Position numbers and translations under genes: made by a program. The notes under the pieces are model-generated. The model did not search any database. It saw only the letters and a list, made by a program, of their open reading frames with translations, and was not told the DNA's origin. Positions 8,584 to 63,629 of a stretch of DNA of 64,000 nt are shown piece by piece; the first letter of the stretch is position 1, and each line of letters opens with the position of its first letter. The stretch is from a virus, in IMG/VR virus record IMGVR_UViG_3300037307_000289; one strand, written 5' to 3'.

Positions 8584-8749
8584 TTATTTCCTTCAATGAG
8601 TAGTAGTATTTTTCACAATCTCTATCACATGTAACTTTGACTAGACATAATCTACAGACGCATACCTCAATACCTTCATTAAATACGTAGAACACTCTAC
8701 ATAGTTTTTTCTTTTTATTGTATTTTCTACACCCAAGACAGTCGTTCAT
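8552..8749 (-). CDS. CPC-CLVK family mini-protein (65 aa)
   Basis: CLGCRKY; CVCRLCLVKVTCDRDC. Confidence 0.65.
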   Translation of the reverse strand: MNDCLGCRKYNKKKKLCRVFYVFNEGIEVCVCRLCLVKVTCDRDCEKYYYSLKEINEVWKEKNKT

Positions 8750-16225: not shown

Positions 16226-17584
16226 TTATATCCTTCCTAAAATTTTCTTTACATAAAATTCAAACGCCCCATTTCCAAACATTCTAATAGTTGAAAGCAC
16301 CGAAGCTTCCATAGTACTCCCTTCATAAACATTATCTAATTGACAAGAGCATCCTTCTAAAAATGTTGAAAATAAATAACTAAACTTCTTATTTTTATAA
16401 ATAGGTGAAATTTGATTACAGCAAGCTAGTTCATGAATTGCAGCCATTCTTATGGTTGTTCTATGAATAATAAAATCTTGAAACCCTCTATTAACATACA
16501 ACATTTTTAGAAATTGCTTTTTATTATTAATATCTGCAATACCAGTCTTTACTATAATTTCATTTCTTCCAGCTTCTATATTATCTATTTCTTTTTTATT
16601 TTTGTTCCATTTTTTTACTTCATTTTCATATTCTGGATAATTTGTATAATAACTTCTGTGGCACCCATATAAAGTATTTGGCAAGTCTCCAAACCCAAAG
16701 CATGAATCACCAGATGAACAAGAAAACATTCTTGGTTTAGTAAAATATTCTTTATAATATGGAAGTTTGTCTACCCATCTATTAAAATAGAAACAAGAAG
16801 GATAAAAAATATGTTTATATCTTTCTTCATTACCTATTTCAAATTGTAGTTTAATCATTTTTAAAAACGAAATTCCATCATCTTGTGTATAGTTATCTGG
16901 CACTACAAGAGTTGGATTAACGAATTGTGATATTGTAATTTTTTTATTACCTATACTTTCAATCCATTTTTTTAAGCAGTCTTCAAAGAAATCATAATAA
17001 TTAACAAGAACTTCCTTATCACACATTTTTCTAACTATTTCTTTCGTTATTGTAGATTTAATTGTGAAACTTATATTATGAAAATCTTCGACATTTGAAA
17101 TTACTTCTTTAACATTATTTACTATAGTATTTGTTGAACCACCCAATCTGTTCTTATCAGTAATCCATTCTGGGCCATCTAATGATATTTGAAAAGATAC
17201 ATTAAGTTTTCTATTCTTAGGTAAAATTTCATTAACAAAATTTATTATATTCTTTGGTGGAGTCATAAAATTTGACGACATATGAATATTATTTAATTTT
17301 GGAAAAGAATCAACTGCTTCTTTATAAAAATCTTTAAATAAACTTAATGTTAATGTGGGTTCTGTTCCCCAATGTGAGAGACTATCTAAATCTTCACCCA
17401 TCATTTCTTTTAGCTCTTTTAAAAGATCCCCATTTTTAATTCTTTCTATAATTTTTGAGTGAACCTTTTTTAAGAAGTCTGTTTTTGGAATAAAACAATA
17501 TTTACAATTTAAATTACACCAACCAGATGAAAATAATTGAATAGCACTAGCCACATTTTCAGAAAAGTATTCGTTCAATTTCAT
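16226..17584 (-). CDS. radical SAM enzyme with C-terminal auxiliary Cys clusters (SPASM/twitch-like, 452 aa)
   Basis: GWCNLNCKYC gives the CxxxCxYC motif. C-terminal Cys groups CSSGDSC..GC and ACCN..GCSC. Confidence 0.75.
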   Translation of the reverse strand: MKLNEYFSENVASAIQLFSSGWCNLNCKYCFIPKTDFLKKVHSKIIERIKNGDLLKELKEMMGEDLDSLSHWGTEPTLTLSLFKDFYKEAVDSFPKLNNIHMSSNFMTPPKNIINFVNEILPKNRKLNVSFQISLDGPEWITDKNRLGGSTNTIVNNVKEVISNVEDFHNISFTIKSTITKEIVRKMCDKEVLVNYYDFFEDCLKKWIESIGNKKITISQFVNPTLVVPDNYTQDDGISFLKMIKLQFEIGNEERYKHIFYPSCFYFNRWVDKLPYYKEYFTKPRMFSCSSGDSCFGFGDLPNTLYGCHRSYYTNYPEYENEVKKWNKNKKEIDNIEAGRNEIIVKTGIADINNKKQFLKMLYVNRGFQDFIIHRTTIRMAAIHELACCNQISPIYKNKKFSYLFSTFLEGCSCQLDNVYEGSTMEASVLSTIRMFGNGAFEFYVKKILGRI

Positions 17585-51430: not shown

Positions 51431-52042
51431 TTATGAATTTAGAAGGTGTTCGTCTATCAAATCATTACTAGGATCATTAGTTGGAATCTCAATATATTTC
51501 CATCCATAGGATTCTAACTTTAATTTTTTATTCATGTCTAATAATAGATCATTATTGTGCCAGAAAGTATCTGGAAACTGTATTACAACTTTTAGTATGG
51601 GATCACAAAAGTCGGTTATAAACTCAAATTTTAATTTTTGGTCAACTCCAAACTGTCTTATTAAATAATCACTTCTTACATTAGAGTAATGAACTCTTAG
51701 AAAATCTTTAATTCTATTTTTCATAGCTTTCATTGGATTTTTTTCAATTTCTTTTTGTAGAATAGCTTCAATATCTAGTTCTTCAATTTCTGGTTCAATT
51801 GGTTCAGGATTTTTTTCTTGTTGGTCTGCAAATAATTCTTTATTTTTTCCAAATTTAGATCTTGCATTAAATTCTTTGCTAGTTATTGGAGCATTAGGAT
51901 ATCTTTTTCTGTAGTCGTCAAAAGTAATATTATGTTTTTCTAAATGTTTTGGACTTAAAGTTAGAAAGCTTTTTCCACAAATTTGGCAGATAAGTTTTCC
52001 TTTCTCATCGAATTCTGGGAATGGAAGTTTAGCTAGTGGCAT
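51431..52042 (-). CDS. MucR/Ros-like zinc-finger DNA-binding protein (203 aa)
   Basis: ICQICGKSFLTLSPKHLEKHNITFDDYRKRYP fits the MucR/Ros C-x2-C-x(12)-H-x3-H finger with the characteristic LxxHLxxxH..T..YR block. Confidence 0.4.
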   Translation of the reverse strand: MPLAKLPFPEFDEKGKLICQICGKSFLTLSPKHLEKHNITFDDYRKRYPNAPITSKEFNARSKFGKNKELFADQQEKNPEPIEPEIEELDIEAILQKEIEKNPMKAMKNRIKDFLRVHYSNVRSDYLIRQFGVDQKLKFEFITDFCDPILKVVIQFPDTFWHNNDLLLDMNKKLKLESYGWKYIEIPTNDPSNDLIDEHLLNS

Positions 52043-52081: not shown

Positions 52082-52504
52082 ATGGAGAGGTATATCGTGA
52101 CTCAAATTCTTGATATTAAAGCAGATAAAAATTTTCCTTATCATTATATTGTATCAGTTGGTTGTTATTCAGGAATTAATGAACCAAGAACTGGTCAATT
52201 TTATTTAAAGTATAAAGTTGTTAGTTTTACGCACGATGATATTGAAAAAGTAAGAAGCGCAATTATGCTTGGAAGTGATCAATTATTTAAAACTAATATG
52301 AAAGATGCTATGAATTTATGCGAATGTAATGAATTAGTTTCAACATTATCATCATTAAAATTTGCTTGTAGAGCAAATATTATAAGTATGCATCATTTTT
52401 CAAGTGAATATGAGATTGATGAAGATTGGTTTAAAAATATTGTAGAAAATGCACACAGAATAGAATCTTATAGAAAACTTCTACAGGAGTCGCTGATGAA
52501 ATGA
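52082..52504 (+). CDS. hypothetical protein (140 aa), first gene of the rightward block
   Basis: ORF with an ATGA overlap onto the next gene. Confidence 0.45.
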   Translation: MERYIVTQILDIKADKNFPYHYIVSVGCYSGINEPRTGQFYLKYKVVSFTHDDIEKVRSAIMLGSDQLFKTNMKDAMNLCECNELVSTLSSLKFACRANIISMHHFSSEYEIDEDWFKNIVENAHRIESYRKLLQESLMK

Positions 52505-53058
52505 AAATTTACAGATTCATTGGTGAGTATGAATTTCTAAGTAATTTTCATCCAGTTGTAATTATTTTTGAAGGTATTAGATATGCTTCCGTTGAACATG
52601 CTTACGTAGCCTCAAAAACCATGGACAAACAATTCAGAAAGAAGATTGCAAAACTTACTGGAAATTATGCTGCATTAGCAAAAAAAATGGGGAGAAAATG
52701 CAGAGTCCGTCCTGGTTGGGAAGAAATTAAACTGAGATTAATGAGAGATTTTTTAACTCAAAAATTCACACAAGAGCCACTTAAAACTCAATTACTTCAA
52801 ACGGGTGATCAAGAACTTATTGAAGGAAATTATTGGCACGATAATTATTGGGGGGAATGTATTTGCGAAAAATGTAACGGCGTAGTAAATTCACAAAACC
52901 ATCTAGGAAAACTCCTGATGGAAATACGAGAAAAAGTGAAAGGAAAAGAAAATGTTTCTACTGTTTGTTATTCTTCTCATGGTTGCGATTGGGGTGTTCC
53001 TTCCGAGGTACATTCCACAAACGATCCGCAAGGAGACGGGAAGGGGTCACACGATTGA
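52501..53058 (+). CDS. NADAR (YbiA/DUF1768) domain protein
   Basis: GEYEFLSNFHPV..EGIRYASVEHAYVASK..YWG..NHLGKLLMEIREKV matches YbiA almost block for block (compared with E. coli YbiA from memory). The last about 30 aa appear to be a run-on tail. Confidence 0.85.
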   Translation: MKIYRFIGEYEFLSNFHPVVIIFEGIRYASVEHAYVASKTMDKQFRKKIAKLTGNYAALAKKMGRKCRVRPGWEEIKLRLMRDFLTQKFTQEPLKTQLLQTGDQELIEGNYWHDNYWGECICEKCNGVVNSQNHLGKLLMEIREKVKGKENVSTVCYSSHGCDWGVPSEVHSTNDPQGDGKGSHD

Positions 53059-54778
53059 AGTTTCACTCTCATGGGTTAGTTGGTTGATCAGAGGGATTTG
53101 TGGTCTTATCATTGCCCTCTGTGTTGCATCGACCAGCTGCGTTATTGTTGGTTCAGATGAAGTTGGTCATCTAAAACGTATTTATATGGGTTCTGAAATG
53201 CCTCAGGGAAGAATAATCGCTTTACCTTCTGAAAAGGGGCCTCAAGCAAGAATTCTTACACCTGGATTCCATTTCATTCCTCTTGTTCGAATCTTTCAAG
53301 AAGTTGAAATGTTGAAGATCGTCACAATCGAACAGGGAAAGTATGGGTTTTTAGTTGCCAGAGATGGAAAACCTCTCCCCGGCGATAAATTTATGGCACC
53401 AGAATTTGAATCTCCGGATAAAATGATTGATGCCCTTTATTTTATGGGATATACTGAAAATGATAGCGATTTTAAAGGACCAAGGGGAACCAAAGGACCT
53501 CAATTGACAGTTCTATCCCCAGGTCAATATAGAATCAATAGGTATCTTTTTGAAGTATATCAAGGAAATTCAACTGCTATTCCTGCTGGTAGTGTTGGGG
53601 TTGTTAAATCAAATGTTGGTGATGATTACAAAGGCGCTCCTATTCTTCCAGAAGGTGTTAAATCAACTGACCTTTCAGTTCCTATTGTTCCAAAAGGATA
53701 TAGAGGTGTTTGGAAGGATGTTCTTGAACCAGGCGAGTATTATATTAATGAAAAGGCGTATCATGTAACTCCAGTAGATACCAGAGTCCAGACTTGGGAT
53801 TATTCTGGTGGTTACAAACGTCGCTGGATTGATCTTAAGATTACAGATGAAGGTAAGATTGAGCAGTCTGTTAGGGAAGAATCCGTAAAGATGCCTCAGG
53901 ATGCTGCTGATGAAGCAGTTGTTCTTCGTATTGAAGGATGGGATATCTTTTTGGATTCCAGACTTCAAGTTCAAGTAGATCCTGAAAATGCTCCATTCGT
54001 TGTTGCAGCGGTTGGTGGCATCAAAGAGATTGAGAATAAGATCATCACTCCTCTTTATCGCTCAATGTTGAGAAACGTTGCGTCACAGGACATTGTTATT
54101 TCTGAACCTGTTTTAGATAAAGACGGGAAACCCGTTATGACTTGGGAGAATAAGCCCAAGTTGGAGACCAAAATCAGACCTAGAAAGGTTCTTGATCTTC
54201 TGTATCATCGGGAAGAGTTGGAAAAAGAAGTTTTCGGTAAACTCTATCCCGAAGGTCGCAAAACTGGTCTTTCACTACAGGGTGTTCGCTTTGGCGATCC
54301 TGCTGTTCCCCCTGAGCTTCTGGTTCCTGCAAAACGCAAGCAGTTGGCACAGCAGCTGGAAGAGACTTATGCTCAAGAAAAGCAGGCACAGACTGCACGT
54401 GTTCAAACTGAAAAAGAACGCGCCAAAGCTGATCAACAAGCTGGTCTTATGAAGTCTGAAATTGGCAAGGAAATTGCTGACAACGTAGCAGTCGCTCGTC
54501 AGAAGGCTGGTAAAGGTGAGGAAGATTATATGAAGGCTCTTGCAAGAGGACAAGAAGCACAAGCAAGTGTTCTTGGCAAAGAAAAAGCTTTCGAACTCGC
54601 CTATATTAAAGAGGTTCTAGCAGCTATTAAAGAGCATCCTGAAATGATTAAAGTTCCGAATACTTTAGTATTGGGATCAGGAAGTTCTCTTGAAGGTGCA
54701 GCTGCAATTCTTGGGCCCAGCAATATTGGGCTTGGATTGCATAGCGCAAATCCACAGAAACCTGCTCCTAAGCAGTAG
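52952..54778 (+). CDS. SPFH/band-7 (flotillin-like) membrane protein (up to 608 aa; start uncertain because it overlaps the NADAR ORF by about 100 nt)
   Basis: N-terminal TM segments. The C-terminal Ala/Gln/Lys/Glu-rich coiled region QAQTARVQTEKERAKADQQAG..KALARGQEAQA is typical of flotillin/YqiK tails. Confidence 0.55.
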   Translation: MFLLFVILLMVAIGVFLPRYIPQTIRKETGRGHTIEVSLSWVSWLIRGICGLIIALCVASTSCVIVGSDEVGHLKRIYMGSEMPQGRIIALPSEKGPQARILTPGFHFIPLVRIFQEVEMLKIVTIEQGKYGFLVARDGKPLPGDKFMAPEFESPDKMIDALYFMGYTENDSDFKGPRGTKGPQLTVLSPGQYRINRYLFEVYQGNSTAIPAGSVGVVKSNVGDDYKGAPILPEGVKSTDLSVPIVPKGYRGVWKDVLEPGEYYINEKAYHVTPVDTRVQTWDYSGGYKRRWIDLKITDEGKIEQSVREESVKMPQDAADEAVVLRIEGWDIFLDSRLQVQVDPENAPFVVAAVGGIKEIENKIITPLYRSMLRNVASQDIVISEPVLDKDGKPVMTWENKPKLETKIRPRKVLDLLYHREELEKEVFGKLYPEGRKTGLSLQGVRFGDPAVPPELLVPAKRKQLAQQLEETYAQEKQAQTARVQTEKERAKADQQAGLMKSEIGKEIADNVAVARQKAGKGEEDYMKALARGQEAQASVLGKEKAFELAYIKEVLAAIKEHPEMIKVPNTLVLGSGSSLEGAAAILGPSNIGLGLHSANPQKPAPKQ

Positions 54779-54829
54779 ATAAATCTGAGAGGGAGGATTG
54801 AGAAATCAGTCCTCCCTCAAGGAGTTTAA

Positions 54830-55207
54830 ATGTACACAGCAGTCTTTGATGGATCAGCACAACCAAATCCAGGAACAAAACATATTGGAGGAGCAGTTTA
54901 TAAAGATGGAAAAACTATTTATACATTTTCTATAAGAAGAAATCATGGAACAAATAATGAAGCAGAATATGAAGCTCTTATTGAAATTGCATCATATTTA
55001 AATGGATCAGGTATTGAAGAAGTAGAAATAACTGGAGATTCAATGTTGGTTGTAAATCAAGTTAATGGTTTATGGAAATGTAATGTTCCTCAATTACAAG
55101 AGTATAAAGAAAAAATTATACGATTACTCTCTGGAATCAAATATTCTTTAAAACATGTACCGAGAGAACAAAATACTTTTGCAGATAAATTGTCGAAAGG
55201 AACTTGA
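54830..55207 (+). CDS. rnhA: RNase H (RNase HI-like, 125 aa)
   Basis: FDGSAQPNPG..GTNNEAEYEALI..ITGDSMLVVNQ..HVPREQNTFADKL carries the D-E-D-D catalytic pattern of RNase H. Confidence 0.8.
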   Translation: MYTAVFDGSAQPNPGTKHIGGAVYKDGKTIYTFSIRRNHGTNNEAEYEALIEIASYLNGSGIEEVEITGDSMLVVNQVNGLWKCNVPQLQEYKEKIIRLLSGIKYSLKHVPREQNTFADKLSKGT

Positions 55208-56058
55208 AATTGAAAATTCATCTTTTGATCATCGACCCTCAATTTGACTTCTGCGATCCAAGAGGTTCCCTTTCTGTGGCAGGAGCGCACGAAGATATGC
55301 ATCGCCTTGCGAAAATGATTCATCGCATTGGCGCAAAACTTGATGATATTCACGTTACACTCGACAGTCATCACCTTGTCGATATTGCACATCCTATTTT
55401 CTGGATTGATTCCAAAGGGAAGCATCCCAATCCCTTCACTCTTATTTTCCTGGATGACGTGAAGAATGGAATGTGGAGAACCACCAATCCACATTTCCAA
55501 AAAAGAGCTTTGGAGTATGTTCAAGCTCTAAAGGACAACAATCGCTATATCCTTTGTATTTGGAATCCACACTGCCTTATAGGTTCAAATGGAACCAAGG
55601 TGTACAACGGCCCAGATGATCCAAAATTCCCTGCCGATCAACGCCTTTATGATGCCCTTCTATCTTGGGAGAATGAGTTCGCCATGGTCGACTACGTGAC
55701 CAAGGGCTCAAATATGTGGACGGAACACTATTCTGCAGTTCAAGCTGACGTTCCCGATCCTGAAGATCCCGACACTCAGCTTAACATGCGCCTTATTAAA
55801 ACCCTTCAAGAGGCGGATATTATTCTTCTTTCTGGAGAAGCTCTTTCCCACTGTGTGTTGAATACAGTCACGGATATTGCAAACAACTTCGGCGAGGAGA
55901 ACATCAAGAAGATGGTTCTCCTGACCGATGCAACTTCCCCTGTTCCCAATCCTCCTGGCCCTGGAGCTCCTGACTTTTTCAAGATGGGGCAGGATTTCAT
56001 CCGCGACATGAAAAAACGTGGTATGCAGGTTTCTACCACGGTTGAATTTCTGAAGTAG
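55204..56058 (+). CDS. isochorismatase-family cysteine hydrolase, nicotinamidase/pyrazinamidase-like (284 aa)
   Basis: LLIIDPQFDFCDPRGSLSV, HCLIGSNGTKV and LSGEALSHCVLNT parallel PncA blocks (LLVDLQNDFCAGGALAV / HCVQNSEGA / GLATDYCV), including the catalytic Cys (compared with E. coli PncA from memory). Confidence 0.75.
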   Translation: MKLKIHLLIIDPQFDFCDPRGSLSVAGAHEDMHRLAKMIHRIGAKLDDIHVTLDSHHLVDIAHPIFWIDSKGKHPNPFTLIFLDDVKNGMWRTTNPHFQKRALEYVQALKDNNRYILCIWNPHCLIGSNGTKVYNGPDDPKFPADQRLYDALLSWENEFAMVDYVTKGSNMWTEHYSAVQADVPDPEDPDTQLNMRLIKTLQEADIILLSGEALSHCVLNTVTDIANNFGEENIKKMVLLTDATSPVPNPPGPGAPDFFKMGQDFIRDMKKRGMQVSTTVEFLK

Positions 56059-56068
56059 GAGGTGCCTG

Positions 56069-56827
56069 ATGCCTAAATTAATGGGAACTGACGAAACTCA
56101 AGTTATTAAAATTGCAGGAGCAGGGAACTTTCAGTTTTCTGCAATTCGCATTGAAGATTTGGGGGCAACCGAATATTCATTGGTCACAATTGTTTGCGAT
56201 GTCTCTGGAAGTGTTGAAACTTTCAAAGATGGTTTATTGAAAATGATCAAAACTGTTGTTGCAGCTTGCAAAAAGAATCCAAGGGCAGAAAATCTTTTGC
56301 TTCGTCTCCTTGTTTTCAACAGTCAAATAACGGAGATTCATGGATTTAAAGAGCTCAGCAGCATTGATCCTGACAAGTATGACCCTCTCAATCCTGACGG
56401 GTTTACTGCATTATTTGATGCTTCATATGATGGCGTTGGTGCAACTCTTGAGTTCGCCAAACGCTTGATTGAACAGGATTTCAACTGCAATGGAGTTGTT
56501 TACATCATTACAGATGGAATGGACAACCGCAGCAGAATGACTCCTTCTGGTATTAAGAAGAAGATTCTTGAAGCTCTTTCAAATGAGCAGATTGAATCTC
56601 TTTCAACTATTCTTATTGCTTTGCATGATCCCAATTCAGGTTGGGCTGCAGATGTGAAAGATGCATTGGATCGCTTTCATAAAGATGCTGGTCTTAATGC
56701 CTTCGTTGATATTGGTGCTGCAACTCCTCAAAAGTTGGCGAAGTTGGCCAACTGGGTGAGCGAAAGTGTCAGCAGCACTTCACAGGCTCTAGGAACTGGA
56801 GCTCCAAGTCAGGTGCTTAAGTTCTAG
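56069..56827 (+). CDS. von Willebrand factor A (vWA) domain protein (252 aa)
   Basis: The MIDAS motif DVSGSV follows a hydrophobic strand. A second block is IITDGMDN. Confidence 0.7.
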   Translation: MPKLMGTDETQVIKIAGAGNFQFSAIRIEDLGATEYSLVTIVCDVSGSVETFKDGLLKMIKTVVAACKKNPRAENLLLRLLVFNSQITEIHGFKELSSIDPDKYDPLNPDGFTALFDASYDGVGATLEFAKRLIEQDFNCNGVVYIITDGMDNRSRMTPSGIKKKILEALSNEQIESLSTILIALHDPNSGWAADVKDALDRFHKDAGLNAFVDIGAATPQKLAKLANWVSESVSSTSQALGTGAPSQVLKF

Positions 56828-56849
56828 AGTGGTCGAGGCGGCGGGTGAA

Positions 56850-56873
56850 GGGTGGGGTCTTAGGATCCCACCC
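56850..56873. other. GC-rich hairpin (gggtggggtc / gatcccaccc, loop ttag) between the vWA gene and a CPC-family gene
   Basis: Read directly. One mismatch in a 10-bp stem. No U-tract. Confidence 0.3.
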
Positions 56874-56890
56874 AGCCTGGAGAAATAACT

Positions 56891-57109
56891 ATGAAACCAA
56901 AAACTTGTGACGGTTGTACTAGATGGTCTAATTTTTTTCATGGTTGTACATTTTTTGCAGATTCATTAGAAGATATGTATATATGTCCATGTCAAGATTG
57001 TCTAGTAAAACCCATGTGTAAAACAGGAATTATTTGCCCTGTATTTAGAAAAAGAGTAGATGAATATTTTGGATTACAAAAGGGATTGAAATACCCGGAG
57101 GAGAAATGA
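56891..57109 (+). CDS. CPC-CLVK family mini-protein on the plus strand (72 aa)
   Basis: CDGCTRW; ICPCQDCLVKPMCKTGIIC. Stop overlaps the next ATG. Confidence 0.7.
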   Translation: MKPKTCDGCTRWSNFFHGCTFFADSLEDMYICPCQDCLVKPMCKTGIICPVFRKRVDEYFGLQKGLKYPEEK

Positions 57110-57768
57110 AAACTTTAATACTAGGAGATATACACGCTGAGTTTGGCAAGCTTAATACAATAATTAATAATAAAAATCCAGATCTAGTTATTTGCTGCGG
57201 CGATTTTGGATATTGGCCAGGAATCAAAACTTTACCACAATTTGAAGATATCAAACCCAAGAACTCAAAAATTCTTTGGATAGATGGAAACCATGAAAAC
57301 CATTGGGCATTAAAAGAAAGAAAATCAGATGAGATAGTTCCTAATATAATCTATATGCCACGCGGTTCTACTTATGATCTTCCTGATGGAAGAAGAATCC
57401 TTTTCATGGGAGGGGCGGATTCCATTGATAAACAATGGAGAAAACTTGGTTATGATTGGTTTCCAGAAGAGATAATTACTCAAAAAGATATAATTAACTT
57501 ACCTGATTGTAAAATTGATATTTTGATAAGTCATACATGTTCAAATGAAATTAAAGATGAAAAAATGATTAAACTTAACCCACTTAAACTAAAAGATCCT
57601 TCAAATGATGCATTAAGTTATATTTGGAATAAGTATCGCCCAAGCATGTGGTTTTTTGGTCACTGGCATAAATTTGTTCAGGGTGGTTACCAAGGAACCT
57701 TATGGTGGGCATTAAGTCATCCAACTGAAGGAACTCGTTGGTGGATTTGGCTCCCGGAGAAAAGGTAA
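57106..57768 (+). CDS. calcineurin-like metallophosphoesterase / Ser-Thr phosphatase (220 aa)
   Basis: GDIHA, GDFG, GNHENH and GHWH motifs in the canonical order. Confidence 0.8.
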   Translation: MKTLILGDIHAEFGKLNTIINNKNPDLVICCGDFGYWPGIKTLPQFEDIKPKNSKILWIDGNHENHWALKERKSDEIVPNIIYMPRGSTYDLPDGRRILFMGGADSIDKQWRKLGYDWFPEEIITQKDIINLPDCKIDILISHTCSNEIKDEKMIKLNPLKLKDPSNDALSYIWNKYRPSMWFFGHWHKFVQGGYQGTLWWALSHPTEGTRWWIWLPEKR

Positions 57769-57950
57769 TGCCTAAAATTCTAGATCAAACTGAAATTGAA
57801 GAATTACTTAAAAGAATGAGAGAAATACAAAATGATGAAAGAAATCTATTAGCAATTAGAGTTATTGCATTAAAAATAGAAACATATCTATTACAAATGG
57901 ATGTAATTCTATTAGAAGAGGAAGTTAAAAACAATGACAAAAACTTATGA
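57738..57950 (+). CDS. small hypothetical protein (70 aa)
   Basis: ORF only. Overlaps both neighbours. Confidence 0.3.
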   Translation: MVDLAPGEKVMPKILDQTEIEELLKRMREIQNDERNLLAIRVIALKIETYLLQMDVILLEEEVKNNDKNL

Positions 57951-58158
57951 AATTCCAGCTAAATTTATGTTAACTACTGATGCAGATCCAAAACAAATTG
58001 GATATCTTGTTTTAAATGCAGAAATAAATATTAATGAAATGCCAAAAGTTATAGCTAAATTTGACGATGGCAAAACAATAACAGGAATAGTTAGAGTACA
58101 CTTCAGCATGCCAGAGGAGGCAGAAGAATCATGTCAAAACGAATCGCAGAAAGTTTGA
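57934..58158 (+). CDS. small hypothetical protein (74 aa)
   Basis: ORF only. Confidence 0.35.
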   Translation: MTKTYEIPAKFMLTTDADPKQIGYLVLNAEININEMPKVIAKFDDGKTITGIVRVHFSMPEEAEESCQNESQKV

Positions 58159-59237
58159 ACATCATCAAGCACCCCATTACCAAAGCTATTTTGGATCGCT
58201 CCACCGAAATTCTAATGCCTTTGAAAGAGGTTGAGGATTGGTGGGGATATGATCTCATGGCTAGAAAACCCAGTCCAGCGTATGATGAATATGGTATATT
58301 CCAAGGGACGGATTTGGATCTTGCATGCTTTCTTTATGCTCTTTCGGAACGTGATGCAGTTATCAACATTCCGGTTTACAAGAGCATGACCCAGAAGAAG
58401 GAACGGGTCGACGAGAAGGTGACCTCCCAGTACAACAGAAATGGGAAGATCATAGGCCTTGGAGCCAACAAGCATTTCTTTTCATTCAACATCAAGATTC
58501 TAGACCAGAATGTCATTGGTCAGGATGAAGTCGGACGTCCAAGAACTTTTTCTCTCACCGACTATTATGGAAAATGGTATGAAGGGTGGAAGACGATTCA
58601 GTTCACTCCAACTTTGAGGGAGAATAAGTTCATCACCGAAAGCGGTTTATGGTCAGGCAACAAAATCTATTTCAAGAATTTCGCCCATCCGAACCGCTGG
58701 ACTTCATTCTTCGGACATCATTATGTCATTACCAAACTGATGATTGAACGCCTTGAAGATGAAGCCAAATATCTCAATGGAGTCATCAAATGGATGCAGG
58801 AAAACGGTGTCAAATTCGAGAAGGGTGAAGGCCCCGAAGAACATGAATATGAATACGGAGACAAGAAGCAGATGAAGTTCAAGGCTTCTGAAGTTGAAGT
58901 ATTCGTTCCAGAATCCTGTATCATTGGGGAATATGAAAAATACCCTCTCGGAATGGCGGAGCTCGCTTTGGCTTATCAAAAACGCAAAGCTCTCAACCGC
59001 GCCATTGGTCGCCTCCGTTTCATGACCAGAGCAACCGAGATGGCTCACTTCCAGAATCCCGCTGCTCTTCCCTCATGGTTGCAGGGTGTTACATGGGAGG
59101 ATGGATTCAAAAAGCCTGGTGGAAGAACCACCTGGAAAAGATTGAAACTGTATCAACCTGCAGTCGGCGAATATTCAGTTTCCATTTTGAAACGGGAATA
59201 TGAGAAGTCTCAAACCGTTTCTGCCGATTCATACTGA
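58131..59237 (+). CDS. hypothetical protein (368 aa), GC-richer codon usage
   Basis: Long ORF. No family recognised. Confidence 0.5.
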   Translation: MSKRIAESLNIIKHPITKAILDRSTEILMPLKEVEDWWGYDLMARKPSPAYDEYGIFQGTDLDLACFLYALSERDAVINIPVYKSMTQKKERVDEKVTSQYNRNGKIIGLGANKHFFSFNIKILDQNVIGQDEVGRPRTFSLTDYYGKWYEGWKTIQFTPTLRENKFITESGLWSGNKIYFKNFAHPNRWTSFFGHHYVITKLMIERLEDEAKYLNGVIKWMQENGVKFEKGEGPEEHEYEYGDKKQMKFKASEVEVFVPESCIIGEYEKYPLGMAELALAYQKRKALNRAIGRLRFMTRATEMAHFQNPAALPSWLQGVTWEDGFKKPGGRTTWKRLKLYQPAVGEYSVSILKREYEKSQTVSADSY

Positions 59238-59288
59238 TTCCAAAATGGGAGGGAGAGGGAAACTTCTCCCTCCTAACGAAAGGTTAAA

Positions 59289-60092
59289 ATGTTAAAAATA
59301 GACACGTTTTCTGAAATTGGTTCACAACATAAAATATGTGAAGATTACTGTATCGGCCAAAATGAGCCATTTCCATTACTTATTTTATCTGATGGATGTT
59401 CAAGTTCAAAAAATACTGATATGGGAGCAAGAATTATTTGTCATTTGACAAAGCAATATATCACTCAAAATCAACAATATTTAAATAAAGTTATTCCTTC
59501 ACAACTAGGAGACTGGGTTATACATAATGCACAAATGACTGCCAAAAACTTGGGTCTCTCGGAAGAATGTTTAGATGCTACTCTAATTATTGCTTATTAT
59601 GTTAAAGAAGAAAATTGTATAAGAATAATAGTTTTTGGTGATGGTGATATAATTCATCAAACCCCAAACGGAACTATATTTAGACATCATATTCATTACA
59701 AACCAAATGCTCCTTATTATCTTTCATATAGAATTAACATGTTTAGAAACCAATCATATCATCAAATGAAAGTTGATAAAACTATTTTGTTAGATGGGGT
59801 CAAAACCGAGACGGTTGCATACGATCAACCATATGTTATGAATATTTTTTTAGACATGGATGAATTTCCTAAGATTCTAATCTGCACTGATGGGATTGAA
59901 TCTTTCCTAAAAGATGTGGTCAACCCTGTAACAGAACCCGAACTAAAATACATATTGAATGGATTTCTTTCATTTAAAACAACAACCGGGGAATTTCTAA
60001 AAAGAAGAGCTACAAATGCTCTAAAGAAATTAACTGCTGAGAATTTTATTCATTATGATGATTTAACTATTGGTGCAATACTAAAGGAGTAA
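59289..60092 (+). CDS. PP2C-like Ser/Thr phosphatase (267 aa)
   Basis: Asp-containing blocks in PP2C order: ICEDYC, ILSDGCSSS, VFGDGDIIH and C-terminal YDDLTIGAI. Confidence 0.45.
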   Translation: MLKIDTFSEIGSQHKICEDYCIGQNEPFPLLILSDGCSSSKNTDMGARIICHLTKQYITQNQQYLNKVIPSQLGDWVIHNAQMTAKNLGLSEECLDATLIIAYYVKEENCIRIIVFGDGDIIHQTPNGTIFRHHIHYKPNAPYYLSYRINMFRNQSYHQMKVDKTILLDGVKTETVAYDQPYVMNIFLDMDEFPKILICTDGIESFLKDVVNPVTEPELKYILNGFLSFKTTTGEFLKRRATNALKKLTAENFIHYDDLTIGAILKE

Positions 60093-60094
60093 TA

Positions 60095-60403
60095 ATGGAA
60101 TATTATCCAACAGATCTAGTAGACCCAAATCAATTGAAAATGCAGTATCAAGGAGTTCCTGTAATGTCTAGAAGCTACATTGGGAACTTACAAGAAGGTA
60201 ACTATGTGAAGATAAGAAGAAATCAAGAGGCATTTTGGGTTCTTCTTGATAAATTAGAAGGAGAAATTATTAAAGGTAAAGTTTTCTACAAGTTATCTTT
60301 CAATAGATATAAAGTTGGAGATTATCTATTCTTCGATCGAAAATATGTTTTTGATGTCTACGTAGGAGACATGTGGAATATGATACCAGTTCAAACTTCT
60401 TAG
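60095..60403 (+). CDS. hypothetical protein (102 aa)
   Basis: ORF only. Confidence 0.4.
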   Translation: MEYYPTDLVDPNQLKMQYQGVPVMSRSYIGNLQEGNYVKIRRNQEAFWVLLDKLEGEIIKGKVFYKLSFNRYKVGDYLFFDRKYVFDVYVGDMWNMIPVQTS

Positions 60404-60412
60404 GAGAGAATA

Positions 60413-62089
60413 GTGGATGTCATAGTTAATGGTCAAAAAATATCATTGAGTCAAAAGAACTTCGTTGCAAAAGGTGGCGAAGGTTCAATATTCAAGAGAA
60501 ACGGAACTGCTTTCAAAATATATGAAGAAATTTCAAAGATGGTTCCTGTTGAGAAATTGAAAGAATTAAAAGAATTAGATCATCCTAATATTGTAAGACC
60601 TCTAGATATTATTATGAATGAAAAGAAACATGCTATTGGTTTTACAATGGCATGGATTGGAGATGATAACTATCCATTAGTTAAATTATTTACAAATACA
60701 TTCAGAGAAGCAAATAATGTAAATGATGCAATGACTTTAGAACTAGTTGAGAATATTAAGAAAGCTACTTACTACATTCACGAACATAATTGCTTAATAG
60801 TTGATGGCAATGAACTTAACTATCTTGTAGCTCCAAATTTTATCAATCCTTACTTCATTGATACTAATGCATGGCAAACCAAAAATTTTCCTGCATCAGC
60901 TATCATGCCTTCAATAAGAGATTGGACTACAGATTCCTTTACGCAATTAACTGATTGGTTCTCATTTGGAATTGTAACATTTCAACTATTCACTGGAATA
61001 CACCCCTTCAAAGGAAAACATAGAGATTTCAGACCAAATGATTTCCGTGGTCGTATCATGAAGAATATGTCAGTCTTTAATCCTCAGGTTTCAATTCCTC
61101 CAACAGTGAGAGATTTTAATTTAATTCCTGGAGCTTATAAAGACTGGTATTATAATGTATTTGAAAATGGAAAGAGAACCCCTCCTCCTGTTCTTCCTGG
61201 TCAAGCAGGAAAGACTCAGGTTAAAGTTATCCTTATTAAAAGCACAGATAACTTTGAATTTTCTGAAGTTAAAGAATATCCAGAAGATATTCTATATCAT
61301 AATGGTTTAACTGAAGTTACAAAAACAAAAACCAAAATATACATTAGACGAACTGACTATGATATTAAACCTGGAGAAGAAATGCTTATTGTTTCAGCAT
61401 ATCAGATTCCAGTTATAGCGAGTGTTGAAAACAAGGTTCTTAAATTGAGAACTTTAGATAACACTTATAAACTAAAACCAATTGCTTTAACATGTACAGA
61501 TAAAATGATTATCGACGATACTTTATTTGTCAGGAATGAAGAAAAATTAATTCAATTAGATTTTACAGTGATGGGCAACAATCTTTTGCCTATCATAAAT
61601 AAAACATGGACGATTGAATCATTTTCAAGTCAGTTGTTCAGCAATATGATTGTACAAAGTGTTCTAGGAAGGACTTACTTTGCAATTCCCAATCCTTCAA
61701 AAGGAACATTTCATATAGTTGCTATTCCTGATTTAGACAAATACAAAATCATTGATGCAAAATATGAAAATTTAGTTTCAGTTTTAATGCTGAACCATAA
61801 CGGAGTTTATTCACGCTGCGTTATTAAATTCACAGAAAAATTTGATAAATATAAGATTAGAATTGATGACCAGGTTGATTACGAAGCAATAAACTTCATT
61901 TGCCTTTCTCAAGGCGTCTGTATCATGATCCATTCTGATACAGTTGAAATTTTCTTTAATAAATTCGATAAGGATGATGTAAAGAAAATTTCCGATCCTC
62001 AAATCAATTCATCTATGAGATTGTGTAAAGATGGTACCAAAGTTAGATTTTTTCAAGGCAAAAAACTCTATAATTTTTCAATGAAGTAG
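60413..62089 (+). CDS. eukaryotic-like protein kinase domain protein (558 aa)
   Basis: Gly loop GGEGSIF, AFKIY (VAIK-like Lys), catalytic-loop-like HEHNCLIVDGNELN, and DWFSFGIVTFQLFTGIHPF matching the D-x-W-S-x-G..PF subdomain IX block. Then a long C-terminal extension. Confidence 0.55.
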   Translation: MDVIVNGQKISLSQKNFVAKGGEGSIFKRNGTAFKIYEEISKMVPVEKLKELKELDHPNIVRPLDIIMNEKKHAIGFTMAWIGDDNYPLVKLFTNTFREANNVNDAMTLELVENIKKATYYIHEHNCLIVDGNELNYLVAPNFINPYFIDTNAWQTKNFPASAIMPSIRDWTTDSFTQLTDWFSFGIVTFQLFTGIHPFKGKHRDFRPNDFRGRIMKNMSVFNPQVSIPPTVRDFNLIPGAYKDWYYNVFENGKRTPPPVLPGQAGKTQVKVILIKSTDNFEFSEVKEYPEDILYHNGLTEVTKTKTKIYIRRTDYDIKPGEEMLIVSAYQIPVIASVENKVLKLRTLDNTYKLKPIALTCTDKMIIDDTLFVRNEEKLIQLDFTVMGNNLLPIINKTWTIESFSSQLFSNMIVQSVLGRTYFAIPNPSKGTFHIVAIPDLDKYKIIDAKYENLVSVLMLNHNGVYSRCVIKFTEKFDKYKIRIDDQVDYEAINFICLSQGVCIMIHSDTVEIFFNKFDKDDVKKISDPQINSSMRLCKDGTKVRFFQGKKLYNFSMK

Positions 62090-62091
62090 AA

Positions 62092-62670
62092 ATGTCAGGG
62101 GGTGAAATTCCCCCTGACAATAACTTAACAAAGGAGCTATCTATGAAAAAGTTATTTGCAGCAGTTGTTATGGTTCTCTGTTTCTTTAGTTTTGCATCGG
62201 CGGATAGTTTTTGTGAGGAGAATTTTGGTATTCCTTTTTTCAGCGATAGAAATTTATCTGAAGCTCAGATGACCAAAAATTTTGGAAAAAGTATAACTAG
62301 AAATAGTGATTTTACAGTTTGGATGGATAGGAATGGAACAAGTATAACTTTATTTTTTAAACAGGAAAAATTAGTTGGTGCTACAAGTATGGTTGCTATA
62401 GTGGCTGAGTCAAGTCAAGCTATTAGTGAGGTAACAAAACTTTTTATTGAAATGAAAAAGATTATTGATGCAGAAAAAGATTATCAATTAGTTAAAGAAA
62501 TTGGAATGGAATTTAGCGGATTAAAATCAAAAGGATTTCTTTATAAATGTAAAAGAAATTCTATGGAAAGAATGGTAATATATATTTCTAAAGACCCTAA
62601 AAATCAATTACTAGGTATAACTGTTCATTCTTATTTGTCTGGATTTGGACTTAGAGAATTTGATCAATGA
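62092..62670 (+). CDS. secreted/periplasmic hypothetical protein (192 aa) with N-terminal signal peptide
   Basis: The signal-like segment MKKLFAAVVMVLCFFSFASA comes after a short N-terminal segment. The start may be the internal MKKLF. Confidence 0.5.
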   Translation: MSGGEIPPDNNLTKELSMKKLFAAVVMVLCFFSFASADSFCEENFGIPFFSDRNLSEAQMTKNFGKSITRNSDFTVWMDRNGTSITLFFKQEKLVGATSMVAIVAESSQAISEVTKLFIEMKKIIDAEKDYQLVKEIGMEFSGLKSKGFLYKCKRNSMERMVIYISKDPKNQLLGITVHSYLSGFGLREFDQ

Positions 62671-62948
62671 AAGAATATTCATACTGCGATGGGTGTTTAA
62701 CATATGAATTAGTTAAAGAAGAAAAAAGAAAAGGAGAAAGTGATTCAAGGTGTTTGGCAGAACTTTCTCCTGGTTGTCATTGTGCTGATTGTTTGGTTAA
62801 ACCAACATGTAGGGCAAAAAATACTTGTATGAAGTTTGTTAAACAAGTTATCCTTACTTTTCCAAATAGAGGAACAGTAGAAGGATTTGTTGATAAATCA
62901 CCACTTAAAGAACAACTAATAGAAGAAAGAGTTTGGCCAATAATATGA
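62667..62948 (+). CDS. CPC-CLVK family mini-protein on the plus strand (93 aa)
   Basis: CDGCLTY; GCHCADCLVKPTCRAKNTC. Confidence 0.65.
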   Translation: MKEYSYCDGCLTYELVKEEKRKGESDSRCLAELSPGCHCADCLVKPTCRAKNTCMKFVKQVILTFPNRGTVEGFVDKSPLKEQLIEERVWPII

Positions 62949-63244
62949 TCTTACATAAAGAAATCTTAGAAGGTTTTACCAATATTGAAAGTGAAGTAGA
63001 TCAATTAAGATCTCTTCAAGGAGAATGTGGAGAACTTATTGCTGCAATACAAAATTATACAAGGAAAGATAAACCAACTGCAATAGTAGATGTTCTTAAT
63101 GAAGTAGTGGATGTCTATTTCTTAATTCAACAAATTCAGTGGTATCATCCAACTACTTTTTCTCAACTATGTAAAAATAAATTAGAAAAAGTCCAAAAGA
63201 CTTTGGAGGCACGTGGTGGCACTGTTAGAAAAGCTAAGAAATGA
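62933..63244 (+). CDS. MazG-like nucleotide pyrophosphohydrolase domain protein (103 aa)
   Basis: ECGELIAAI and NEVVDVYFLIQQI fit the E-x2-E-L / E-x2-D helix pair of small MazG/HisE-type domains. Confidence 0.5.
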   Translation: MANNMILHKEILEGFTNIESEVDQLRSLQGECGELIAAIQNYTRKDKPTAIVDVLNEVVDVYFLIQQIQWYHPTTFSQLCKNKLEKVQKTLEARGGTVRKAKK

Positions 63245-63629
63245 TCTTAAGCAGACAATGCTTACTAAAGATGAAGAAAAGAAAAATACTATTAAAATGG
63301 TTCTAGGTGAAATTCCAAGATTGAATAAACTTGCCAATGAAATTCCTACTGATGCAGAAGTTGAAGGAATCATCCGGAAGCTTATCAAATCAGAAACTCA
63401 GGTTTTAGAGCTGACTAAAAAGGATATTAATCAGTCTGAATATATTAAGGTTCTATCGAGTTATCTTCCTCAATCATTGAGTAAAGAAGAGATTAAAGAA
63501 TGGATTTCATCAAACATTGATCTTTCTAAATATGATAACCCAATCAAAGCTATGGGTGAAATTATGAAAGCTTTGAAGGGAAAAGTTGATGGTGGGGTTG
63601 TTAGAAATATACTTACCAATATATATTAA
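63213..63629 (+). CDS. yqeY: GatB/YqeY domain protein (138 aa)
   Basis: LLEKLRNDLKQTMLTKDEEKKNTIKMV, YLPQSLSKEEI and MGEIMKALKGKVDGGVV align closely with Bacillus YqeY (LLERLNQDMK.., YLPEQLSEEEL, MGKVMGAIMPKVKGKADGS), recalled from memory. Confidence 0.8.
   Translation: MVALLEKLRNDLKQTMLTKDEEKKNTIKMVLGEIPRLNKLANEIPTDAEVEGIIRKLIKSETQVLELTKKDINQSEYIKVLSSYLPQSLSKEEIKEWISSNIDLSKYDNPIKAMGEIMKALKGKVDGGVVRNILTNIY

What the first reader, a model, noticed from the sequence alone, without database searches (positions are those of the whole stretch)
56069..62089. Signalling-type module: vWA protein, metallophosphoesterase, PP2C-like phosphatase and eukaryotic-like kinase
Within 6 kb the plus strand encodes a MIDAS-containing vWA protein, a calcineurin-like phosphoesterase, a PP2C-like phosphatase and a 558-aa protein kinase-fold protein with atypical catalytic-loop residues (HEHN..DGNELN). 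Kinase, phosphatase and vWA triads are a recurring bacterial signalling arrangement. Carried by a virus, they would reprogramme host phosphosignalling, or a defence system may have been co-opted.
Basis: partly seen in the sequence, partly recalled or inferred. Interest (0 to 1): 0.5.

Follow-up and report, generated by a model that had tools for sequence, protein, structure and literature searches.

The report
Nicotinamidase-linked kinase–phosphatase–vWA phage cassette
A large uncultured phage carries a kinase, a phosphatase and a metal-binding adaptor protein next to a nicotinamidase gene, and in related huge phages this four-gene set sits inside a complete NAD+ recycling operon, which suggests a phosphorylation switch coupled to NAD+ salvage.

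Summary
The kinase, PP2C and vWA proteins keep their catalytic or metal-binding residues, so the kinase is not a pseudokinase. It is a Hanks-type kinase fused to a seven-bladed beta-propeller.

The module boundaries were wrong. Across 83 related loci (IMG/VR huge-phage contigs up to 618 kb, and MAG contigs), only four gene families recur. Fifty-seven loci, counting the window, hold all four genes, and 51 of those keep this order. Many have the genes abutting.

The metallophosphoesterase and the 368-aa and 102-aa ORFs are lineage-specific inserts. The next most frequent neighbours are PncB/NAPRT, NadD-like, NadE and NrtR. This places the triad inside a Preiss-Handler NAD+ salvage operon in some relatives, for example L046.

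The triad matches E. coli YegL-PphC-YegI (the TerY-P triad) in gene order and, weakly, by profile comparison. It fails PADLOC TerY-P models and has a different kinase C-terminus.

My best reading is a reversible Ser/Thr phospho-switch coupled to nicotinamide-to-NAD+ salvage. The composition and linkage are shown; the function is inferred. I found no description of this arrangement in the literature available here.

The parts
55204..56058 (+). Nicotinamidase (PncA/Pnc1)-like amidohydrolase, 284 aa, TTG start.
   Evidence: A family profile (A5) hits solved nicotinamidases: yeast Pnc1 2h0r at 2.2e-15, plus 1ilw, 3pl1 (M. tuberculosis PncA) and 2wt9. The catalytic D11, K167 and C217 and the metal ligands D54, H56 and H123 ('WPxHC') are kept in 66-67 of 67 relatives. 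The gene is present in 69 of 84 loci, next to the vWA gene. The window protein alone is below the Pfam Isochorismatase cut-off.
56069..56827 (+). vWA-domain protein (252 aa) with a complete MIDAS metal site and a near-invariant Ser-rich C-terminal tail. It resembles TerY/YegL.
   Evidence: MIDAS residues D44, S/T46, S48, T113 and D149 are kept in 68 of 68 relatives. Tail residues S231, S233 and S238 are kept in 66-68 of 68. Of 52 relatives, 13 hit Pfam VWA, 5 VWA_2 and 2 VWA_CoxE, and nothing else is hit. JGI labels members 'YegL'. hhalign against E. coli YegL gives E 2e-4, probability 47%, and aligns both the MIDAS region and the Ser-rich tail. There is no sequence hit to PDB or to PADLOC models.
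56891..59237 (+). Lineage-specific insert between the vWA and PP2C genes. It holds a 72-aa Cys-rich ORF (56891-57109), a calcineurin-like metallophosphoesterase (57106-57768), 70-aa and 74-aa ORFs, and a 368-aa protein of unknown fold (58131-59237). None is part of the conserved cassette.
   Evidence: By tblastn the metallophosphoesterase is found in 5 distinct related loci, at a different position, and the 368-aa protein in 6. Clustering places them in 5 and 8 of 84 loci, counting the window. In many loci vWA and PP2C abut directly. The AF2 model of the 368-aa protein (pLDDT 79.7) has no PDB fold match.
59289..60092 (+). PP2C-type Ser/Thr phosphatase, 267 aa.
   Evidence: Pfam PP2C_2 at 1.7e-11, above the cut-off. 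The metal-binding Asp residues D19, D35, D118, D201 and D258 are kept in 65 of 65 relatives. hhalign against E. coli PphC gives E 1e-5, probability 82%.
60095..60403 (+). 102-aa ORF between the PP2C and kinase genes. It is a clade-specific insert of unknown function.
   Evidence: No family hits. tblastn finds it in only two related loci. In most loci PP2C abuts the kinase.
60413..61192 (+). Hanks-type Ser/Thr protein kinase domain (aa 1-260 of the 558-aa protein), predicted to be active.
61253..62089 (+). C-terminal all-beta domain of the kinase protein (aa 281-558), predicted to be a seven-bladed beta-propeller. It is the likely sensor or docking domain.

Best explanation
The real unit is a four-gene, co-directional cassette: a PncA-like nicotinamidase, a TerY/YegL-like vWA protein, a PP2C phosphatase, and a Hanks-type kinase fused to a beta-propeller. 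It has been inherited as a block in a broad group of uncultured huge, T4-like phages.

Proposed mechanism, with each step marked as shown or inferred:
1. The nicotinamidase converts nicotinamide to nicotinate. Nicotinamide is the pyridine product of NAD+ cleavage, for example by host NAD+-depleting defences. Homology, catalytic residues and the metal site are shown; the activity is inferred.
2. Nicotinate enters the Preiss-Handler route (PncB, NadD, NadE) to rebuild NAD+. In many relatives these enzymes and an NrtR-type regulator are encoded right beside the cassette (shown). In this window they are absent, so host enzymes would have to do these steps (inferred).
3. The kinase and PP2C form a reversible Ser/Thr switch. 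The vWA protein, through its MIDAS site and its invariant Ser-rich tail, is the likely adaptor and/or phospho-acceptor. The propeller is the likely input or docking domain. All of this step is inferred.
4. The switch gates or reports NAD+ salvage during infection (inferred from the tight genetic linkage).
For: - Active-site conservation. The catalytic or metal residues of all four proteins are kept in 65-73 diverse relatives (alignments).
- Nicotinamidase identity. The family profile hits solved nicotinamidases at 2.2e-15.
- Kinase fold. It is a kinase plus beta-propeller.
- Linkage. In all-against-all clustering of ORFs from 84 loci (83 related loci plus the window), only these four families are near-universal (77, 69, 69 and 68 loci). 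Fifty-seven loci have all four, 51 of those in the same order, and 22 are packed within 3.2 kb. The kinase has diverged to as little as 27% identity.
- NAD+ context. The next most frequent real neighbours are Nudix/NrtR (25 loci), NadE (14), PncB (12), a second NAPRT type (7), NadD-like (6) and NAD-dependent ligase (6), confirmed by Pfam and PDB searches. Thirty-five of 84 loci have at least one more NAD-pathway gene within 10 kb.
- L046, a 618-kb viral contig, reads NAPRT-NadE-PncA-vWA-PP2C-kinase-NadD-NrtR, all on one strand.
- A cellular copy on a 1-Mb contig (L083) is followed by an ORF that reads as Nudix/NrtR-like (read from the sequence, not scanned against Pfam).
- Triad homology. The gene order and profile matches agree with E. 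coli YegL-PphC-YegI. YegI is an experimentally active kinase with an atypical catalytic loop (bioRxiv 10.1101/819920).
Against: - No experiment bears on any of the activities.
- This window has no PncB, NadD, NadE or Nudix gene in its 64 kb. Here the NAD+ link rests on the nicotinamidase alone plus a nearby NADAR gene.
- In the window the cassette is interrupted by about 2.5 kb of inserted genes.
- Linkage could reflect co-regulation or shared timing rather than physical or regulatory coupling.
- The vWA match to YegL is weak (probability 47%). PADLOC TerY-P models do not recognise the vWA or the kinase.
- The substrate of the nicotinamidase-like enzyme could be another amide. The family carries large insertions relative to PncA.
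- No promoter or terminator signal above chance defines an operon.
Confidence: 0.5

Rival explanations
1. Host-takeover kinase. The kinase phosphorylates host proteins to redirect host metabolism or transcription, as T7 gp0.7 does. PP2C resets or limits this and the vWA protein targets it. The nicotinamidase is merely a neighbouring auxiliary metabolic gene.
For: The kinase is predicted to be active and carries a protein-interaction propeller. The cassette sits in a block of non-structural genes with NADAR, RNase H and SPFH genes. The window lacks the rest of the NAD+ pathway.
Against: The nicotinamidase gene stays directly next to the triad in most loci while every other neighbour changes. 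In several loci the triad lies in the middle of an NAD+ salvage operon (L046, L042). Both are hard to explain if the functions are unrelated.
Confidence: 0.2
2. Phage-borne TerY-P-type defence system. The phage carries a co-opted antiviral triad to exclude competing phages or mobile elements, with the nicotinamidase-like enzyme as an accessory or effector.
For: TerY-P-like triads protect bacteria from phages (Gao et al. 2020, as summarised in PMC11090510). The gene order matches yegL-pphC-yegI. Huge phages are known, from my own knowledge, to carry defence-like systems.
Against: PADLOC models give no hit for the vWA protein or the kinase domain as a whole, and only a weak hit to a model named PP2C. 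The kinase lacks the zinc-ribbon or OB-fold C-terminus described for TerY-P. The cassette appears to be inherited vertically over deep divergence, because the identities of the four proteins fall together, unlike patchy defence islands. No nuclease or other toxic effector is linked. The conserved neighbours are biosynthetic NAD+ genes.
Confidence: 0.12
3. NAD+ salvage genes plus an unrelated, selfishly linked signalling triad, or a remnant of a cellular NrtR regulon captured once, with no phage-specific role for the triad.
For: A cellular copy exists on a 1-Mb high-GC contig, next to an ORF that reads as Nudix/NrtR-like (L083).
Against: All catalytic residues of the triad are under strong purifying selection across the phages. 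Kinase homologues keep 50% or more identity over the full length in the best 120 of 1212 hits.
Confidence: 0.08

Closest known systems
TerY-P (TerY-phosphorylation) triad of Anantharaman, Iyer and Aravind 2012; archetype E. coli yegL-pphC-(yegJ)-yegI
   Same: It has the same three components in the same order: a vWA protein with MIDAS, then a PP2C phosphatase, then a Hanks-type Ser/Thr kinase. All three give profile matches to the E. coli proteins (E 2e-4, 1e-5 and 7.6e-6). The vWA proteins share a Ser-rich C-terminal segment. Both kinases have a non-HRD catalytic loop and a non-DFG magnesium loop (10.1101/819920).
   Different: The kinase C-terminus here is a soluble seven-bladed beta-propeller. 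YegI has a two-pass membrane region, CoCoNuT-linked triads have a zinc ribbon, and the Gao 2020 defence version has an OB fold. The cassette is carried by phages. It is fused genetically to a nicotinamidase and NAD+ salvage genes rather than to McrBC-type restriction, type VII secretion or tellurite-resistance genes. PADLOC does not recognise it.
Nicotinamidase PncA/Pnc1 (isochorismatase-like cysteine hydrolases), first step of Preiss-Handler NAD+ salvage
   Same: The Asp-Lys-Cys triad, the Asp/His/His metal site and the 'WPxHC' motif are present. The profile matches solved nicotinamidases at 2.2e-15. In relatives the gene lies next to PncB, NadD and NadE.
   Different: It is about 270-285 aa against 180-216 aa for the solved enzymes, with insertions after the metal-site histidines. 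The window protein is too divergent to pass Pfam or NCBIfam thresholds on its own. It is always coupled to a kinase, phosphatase and vWA triad.
Phage NAD+ reconstitution pathways NARP1, NARP2 and NARP3
   Same: These are phage-encoded enzymes that rebuild NAD+ from its breakdown products or precursors. Relatives of this cassette encode a full nicotinamide-to-NAD+ route.
   Different: The chemistry differs: deamidation to nicotinate followed by PncB, NadD and NadE. The known pathways use Adps+Namat, Nampt+Nmnat, or PnuC+NadR. None of the NARP papers read here mentions a nicotinamidase or a kinase module. The window carries only the first enzyme.
LRRK2/Roco-type and PknD-type kinases (kinase fused to a beta-propeller)
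   Same: The domain architecture is a kinase followed by a propeller, and LRRK2 is the top Foldseek match.
   Different: This is a similarity of architecture only, at about 13% identity. There are no ROC-COR, LRR or transmembrane parts.

Membership tests
TerY-P triad (vWA + PP2C + Ser/Thr kinase) | A vWA-domain protein with an intact MIDAS motif | tested here: met
   D44, S/T46, S48, T113 and D149 are kept in 68 of 68 relatives. Relatives hit only VWA-type Pfam families.
TerY-P triad (vWA + PP2C + Ser/Thr kinase) | The vWA protein is specifically of the TerY/YegL type | tested here: inconclusive
   hhalign against E. coli YegL gives E 2e-4 but only 47% probability. JGI labels members 'YegL'. 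There is no PADLOC or NCBIfam hit.
TerY-P triad (vWA + PP2C + Ser/Thr kinase) | A PP2C-family phosphatase with its metal-binding aspartates | tested here: met
   Pfam PP2C_2 at 1.7e-11. D19, D35, D118, D201 and D258 are invariant. The match to PphC is 1e-5.
TerY-P triad (vWA + PP2C + Ser/Thr kinase) | A Hanks-type Ser/Thr kinase with catalytic residues | tested here: met
TerY-P triad (vWA + PP2C + Ser/Thr kinase) | The three genes are adjacent and co-directional | tested here: met
   The genes abut in many relatives and are co-directional in nearly all. In the window they are co-directional but separated by inserts.
TerY-P triad (vWA + PP2C + Ser/Thr kinase) | The kinase is fused at its C-terminus to a zinc ribbon (CoCoNuT-linked form) or an OB fold (defence form of Gao 2020) | tested here: not met
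   The C-terminal 280 aa form a beta-propeller. The definition comes from PMC11090510.
TerY-P triad (vWA + PP2C + Ser/Thr kinase) | Recognition by PADLOC defence-system models | tested here: not met
   There is only a weak hit (2.9e-4) to a model named PP2C. The vWA protein gives nothing, and the kinase gives only short alpha-F motif hits to other systems.
TerY-P triad (vWA + PP2C + Ser/Thr kinase) | Protects a cell from phage infection | not testable with these tools
   This needs plaque assays.
Nicotinamidase (PncA/Pnc1) | The Asp-Lys-Cys catalytic triad | tested here: met
   D11 67/67, K167 67/67 and C217 66/67.
Nicotinamidase (PncA/Pnc1) | The Asp/His/His metal site, including the 'WPxHC' motif | tested here: met
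   D54, H56 and H123 are kept in 66-67 of 67 relatives, and W120 in 67 of 67. These positions align with Pnc1.
Nicotinamidase (PncA/Pnc1) | Significant sequence match to characterised nicotinamidases | tested here: met
   The family profile hits 2h0r at 2.2e-15, plus four further nicotinamidases. The window protein alone is below the Pfam and NCBIfam cut-offs.
Nicotinamidase (PncA/Pnc1) | Hydrolyses nicotinamide to nicotinate | not testable with these tools
   This needs an enzyme assay.
Phage NAD+ reconstitution pathway (NARP-like) | The phage encodes a set of enzymes sufficient to make NAD+ from a breakdown product | tested here: inconclusive
   The feature is met in relatives that carry PncA, PncB/NAPRT, NadD-like and NadE (L046, L042). 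It is not met in the window, which has the nicotinamidase only.
Phage NAD+ reconstitution pathway (NARP-like) | Overcomes NAD+-depleting defence systems | not testable with these tools
   This needs infection assays and NAD+ measurements.
   It is found only in the closest relatives (5 by tblastn; 4 by clustering). There it lies between the NADAR and SPFH genes, not inside the triad.

The most novel reading that the evidence does not exclude
Huge phages encode a fourth, regulated NAD+ reconstitution route of the Preiss-Handler type (nicotinamidase, then PncB, NadD and NadE). A TerY-P-like kinase, phosphatase and vWA sensor is built into the operon. It switches NAD+ rebuilding on or off in response to host NAD+-depleting immunity. 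This would be the first metabolic counter-defence known to be controlled by phage-encoded Ser/Thr phosphorylation, and the first functional context for the enigmatic TerY-P/YegL-PphC-YegI triad.
Probability: 0.3. Interest if true: 0.8.

Novelty: new variant of a known kind. Interest (0 to 1): 0.62.

Why it matters
NAD+ depletion is a major bacterial anti-phage strategy. Three phage NAD+ rebuilding pathways had been described by August 2026, and none uses a nicotinamidase or any signalling module.

A conserved phage cassette that joins a nicotinamidase to a kinase, phosphatase and vWA switch, often inside a full Preiss-Handler operon, would add a new route. It would also be the first sign that phages regulate such a route by phosphorylation.

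It gives the TerY-P triad, including E. coli YegL-PphC-YegI whose substrates and signal are unknown, a concrete and testable biochemical context: nicotinamide and NAD+.

The four proteins are small and soluble with predicted active sites, so the hypothesis can be tested directly in vitro and in E. coli defence assays.

Tried and rejected
- Near-identical DNA in GenBank phages: none. Protein searches find the kinase and the nicotinamidase only in uncultured records: the three huge-phage records LR745208, LR756511 and LR756500, plus a weak nicotinamidase match in a 6.5-kb fragment (MT837596). No cultured phage has either, so there is no experimental handle.
- vWA fold by sequence against PDB, using the single protein and two profiles: nothing.
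- PADLOC and NCBIfam scans of 52 vWA relatives for a TerY model: nothing relevant.
- The 368-aa inserted protein. It has 443 homologues. Its profile gives nothing against PDB. The AF2 model has pLDDT 79.7. Foldseek against PDB gives no match below E 0.3. It is set aside as a clade-specific insert of unknown fold.
- The metallophosphoesterase as a module member: rejected on distribution.
- Promoter and terminator scan to define an operon: counts equal chance.
- tRNA scan of the window: none.
- AFDB fold search: the library was not available.
- The Anantharaman 2012 paper could not be read. The TerY-P definition was taken from PMC11090510 and PMC4978471 instead.
- Pseudokinase hypothesis: rejected.
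- Chance juxtaposition: rejected.
- vWA as a MoxR-type virion assembly co-chaperone, as described for jumbo phages in PMC7824862: there is no AAA+ partner in any locus, so it is unlikely.

Full report
**What is in the window.** The + strand from about 52 kb to 64 kb is a tightly packed co-directional gene block next to a long minus-strand structural block. The structural block includes several paralogous tail-fibre genes, RtcB and radical-SAM genes. There are no tRNAs and no near-identical GenBank phage.

They are a 252-aa protein at 56069-56827, a 220-aa Metallophos protein at 57106-57768 (Pfam 3e-16), a 267-aa PP2C_2 protein at 59289-60092 (1.7e-11) and a 558-aa protein at 60413-62089 (Pkinase 6e-8). 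Between them lie small ORFs of 72, 70 and 74 aa, a 368-aa ORF and a 102-aa ORF, none with family matches. Upstream are NADAR, SPFH/Band 7 and RNase H genes, and a 284-aa ORF with only a weak isochorismatase/nicotinamidase signal.

**The kinase.** The protein has 1212 database homologues at E 0.001 or better. The best 120 are nearly all about 560 aa long and share 50% or more identity over the full length. Some lie on contigs of 215-310 kb. Two such contigs carry T4-type capsid and portal genes and the same local gene order as the window.

In an alignment of 28 homologues, and again in 73 sequences from diverse loci, the following are kept in 70-73 of 73:
- the glycine-loop Gly (G21),
- the ATP-binding Lys (K35),
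- the catalytic Asp and Asn (D131 and N136 in 'VDGNELN'),
- the Mg-binding Asp (D150),
- the alpha-F Asp (D181 in 'DWFSFG').

**The vWA protein.** The window protein alone is below every Pfam vWA cut-off and gives nothing against PDB sequences. The family is large: 813 homologues, and 501 representative clusters at E below 1e-30. JGI annotates members as 'YegL'.

Of 52 diverse members, 13 hit Pfam VWA (best 1.9e-7), 5 hit VWA_2 and 2 hit VWA_CoxE, and no other family is hit. The MIDAS residues (D44-x-S/T46-x-S48, T113, D149) are kept in 68 of 68 relatives. A Ser-rich C-terminal tail (S231, S233, S238, ending in '..PSQxLxF') is almost invariant. I accept it as a MIDAS-bearing vWA protein.

**The PP2C.** The canonical metal-binding aspartates (D19, D35-G36, D118, D201-G202, D257-D258) are invariant in 65 relatives.

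**What the module really is.** I fetched 46 IMG/VR loci (contigs up to 618 kb, kinase identity 29-53%) and 38 GTDB loci. The GTDB loci are all MAGs with mutually inconsistent taxonomy, from Thermoplasmatales to Patescibacteria, which fits mis-binned phage contigs.

tblastn with every window protein showed that only four co-occur with the kinase: the 284-aa ORF at 55204-56058, the vWA protein and the PP2C, on the same strand and usually in that order.

An unbiased all-against-all clustering of every ORF in 84 loci (83 related loci plus the window) gave the same answer. The families present in the most loci were kinase 77, 284-aa protein 69, vWA 69 and PP2C 68. The next clusters were antisense shadow ORFs of these genes. 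Fifty-seven loci have all four, 51 of those in the order 284-aa, vWA, PP2C, kinase, and 22 are packed within 3.2 kb. In loci such as L032, L036 and L039 the four genes abut.

The metallophosphoesterase appears only in the closest relatives (5 by tblastn, 4 by clustering), at a different position between the NADAR and SPFH genes. The 368-aa protein appears in 7 related loci. By tblastn the 102-aa protein appears in two. These are lineage-specific insertions into an older four-gene cassette.

**The fourth gene is a nicotinamidase.** A profile of 31 family members hits solved nicotinamidases: yeast Pnc1 at 2.2e-15, P. horikoshii and M. tuberculosis PncA, and the Acinetobacter enzyme. The alignment covers the hallmark motifs. 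The catalytic Asp-Lys-Cys (D11, K167, C217) and the metal ligands (D54, H56, H123 within 'WPxHC') are kept in 66-67 of 67 relatives. It is the most conserved of the four proteins, at 40-68% identity where the kinase is about 30%.

**NAD+ context.** After the four core families, the most frequent real neighbours within 10 kb are:
- Nudix proteins, many with the NrtR winged-helix domain (25 loci),
- NAD synthase NadE, some with the glutaminase domain (14),
- nicotinate phosphoribosyltransferase PncB (12),
- a second NAPRT type (7; best PDB matches are nicotinate PRTases),
- a NadD-like nucleotidyltransferase (6),
- NAD-dependent DNA ligase (6).

Thirty-five of 84 loci have at least one further NAD-pathway gene. 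In L046, from a 618-kb viral contig, the order is NAPRT-NadE-nicotinamidase-vWA-PP2C-kinase-NadD-NrtR on one strand. L042 is similar. So in part of this phage group the triad is embedded in a complete Preiss-Handler salvage operon.

A high-GC copy on a 1.0-Mb contig (L083) has the nicotinamidase, the vWA protein, a repeat-filled gap and the kinase, followed by an ORF that reads as Nudix/NrtR-like. That reading is from the sequence and was not scanned against Pfam. A cellular version therefore exists.

The window itself has no PncB, NadD, NadE or Nudix gene in its 64 kb. Its only other NAD/ADP-ribose-related gene nearby is NADAR.

**Comparison with what is known.** The TerY-P triad is defined as a TerY-like vWA protein, a PP2C enzyme and a Ser/Thr kinase. 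In CoCoNuT-linked forms the kinase is fused to a zinc ribbon, and in the stand-alone defence form to an OB fold. It has been proposed to be a metal-sensing phosphorylation switch (PMC11090510; PMC4978471).

E. coli yegL-pphC-(yegJ)-yegI has the same gene order. hhalign of the phage families against the three E. coli proteins gives:
- E 2e-4 for vWA against YegL (probability 47%, with the MIDAS region and the Ser-rich tail aligned),
- 1e-5 for PP2C against PphC (82%),
- 7.6e-6 for the kinase against YegI (84%, 238 columns).

YegI is an active kinase with a deviant catalytic loop. It is dephosphorylated by PphC, and its substrates are unknown (bioRxiv 10.1101/819920).

The phage triad thus works like, and is probably related to, TerY-P. 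Three things differ. PADLOC defence models do not recognise the vWA protein or the kinase. The kinase C-terminus is a propeller. The genomic partners are NAD+ enzymes rather than restriction, secretion or tellurite genes.

The known phage NAD+ reconstitution pathways are NARP1, NARP2 and, since August 2026, NARP3 (PnuC plus NadR). The papers read here mention no nicotinamidase, no Preiss-Handler enzymes and no kinase module. Two broad surveys, of jumbo-phage gene content and of NAD+/ADP-ribose systems in viruses, do not mention nicotinamidase, PP2C or TerY. Full-text searches combining nicotinamidase, vWA, PP2C and phage found nothing relevant. In GenBank phages the kinase and the nicotinamidase occur only in uncultured records, chiefly three huge-phage records, and in no cultured phage.

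**Mechanism proposed.** Shown by computation:
- the composition of the cassette,
- intact active sites in all four proteins,
- deep co-inheritance and co-linearity,
- frequent embedding among PncB, NadD, NadE and NrtR genes.

Inferred:
- The nicotinamidase turns nicotinamide released by NAD+ cleavage into nicotinate for resynthesis of NAD+ by phage or host enzymes.
- The kinase and PP2C reversibly phosphorylate a cassette component. The invariant Ser-rich tail of the vWA protein is the best candidate.
- The propeller provides the input or docking surface, and the vWA MIDAS site tethers a partner.
- The switch gates or reports NAD+ salvage.

The main rivals are a host-directed takeover kinase with an unrelated neighbour, and a phage-borne TerY-P defence system. 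Both are weakened by the invariant adjacency to the nicotinamidase and by the biosynthetic, non-toxic nature of the conserved neighbours. Neither is excluded.

**Verdict.** The module boundaries and the functional reading needed correction. The finding is a new variant of a known kind: a TerY-P-like triad with a new kinase architecture, a new carrier and a new functional partner. It comes with a testable link to phage NAD+ counter-defence. Interest is moderate to high. The biology is inferred only, and the window's own copy lacks the rest of the NAD+ pathway.

Noticed in passing
window 56891-57109 and 62667-62948 (+): Two small Cys-rich ORFs (72 and 93 aa) are paralogues sharing 'C.C.DCLVKP.C' (BLASTP 2e-6). 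One is inserted in the cassette and one lies just downstream. Neither has a family match. They may be zinc-binding proteins.
   Followed up: partly
window 62093-62119: A perfect 10-bp GC-rich hairpin (TGTCAGGGGG..CCCCCTGACA) starts three bases after the kinase stop codon. The listed start of the next ORF (62092) lies inside it. The real start is probably the internal Met at about 62143, which opens a signal-peptide-like 'MKKLFAAVVMVLCFFSFASA'. The hairpin may mark the end of the transcription unit.
   Followed up: no
window 58131-59237 (+): The 368-aa protein belongs to a well-conserved family of 443 homologues with 54% or more identity among the best 120. It gives a fairly confident AF2 model (pLDDT 79.7, pTM 0.83) that has no PDB fold match. 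It may be a new fold, confined to the window's phage clade.
   Followed up: yes
window 52082-55207 (+): A conserved upstream block holds a 140-aa ORF, NADAR (7.8e-22), an SPFH/Band 7 protein of about 600 aa and a small RNase H. It is syntenic with 248-kb and 309-kb relatives. NADAR is an ADP-ribose-related domain, which may connect with the NAD+ theme.
   Followed up: partly
L083 9567-10000 (1.0-Mb high-GC MAG contig): In this cellular copy of the cassette, the place of the PP2C gene is taken by a short-period repeat that translates as 'GPWTVDR...' in several frames. The kinase follows, and then an ORF that reads as Nudix/NrtR-like.
   Followed up: no
GTDB loci L049-L086; P0275: Contigs carrying this phage cassette are deposited in MAGs labelled Thermoplasmatales, Promethearchaeota, Thorarchaeota, Patescibacteria, Myxococcota and others. 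These are probably huge-phage contigs mis-binned into cellular genomes.
   Followed up: no
window 8746-9936, 13412-14740, 16226-17584 (-): There is an RtcB RNA ligase (phrog_1075, 2.9e-105) and two paralogous radical-SAM-like proteins. A relative (L002) also carries RtcB and a CCA-adding enzyme next to the cassette. This points to an RNA-repair theme.
   Followed up: no
window 24858-51152 (-): There is a long run of tail-fibre-like genes, including at least three paralogues matching phrog_4492, two giant ORFs of 1415 and 2337 aa, and a 656-aa protein with poly-Gly tracts and a His-rich C-terminus ('HSHSMPDHNHYYAHRHY').
   Followed up: no
window 51431-52042 (-), 62933-63629 (+): A ROS/MucR-type zinc-finger regulator sits at the divergent junction between the structural block and the cassette block. 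Downstream of the cassette are a MazG-like pyrophosphohydrolase and a YqeY/GatB-like protein.
   Followed up: no
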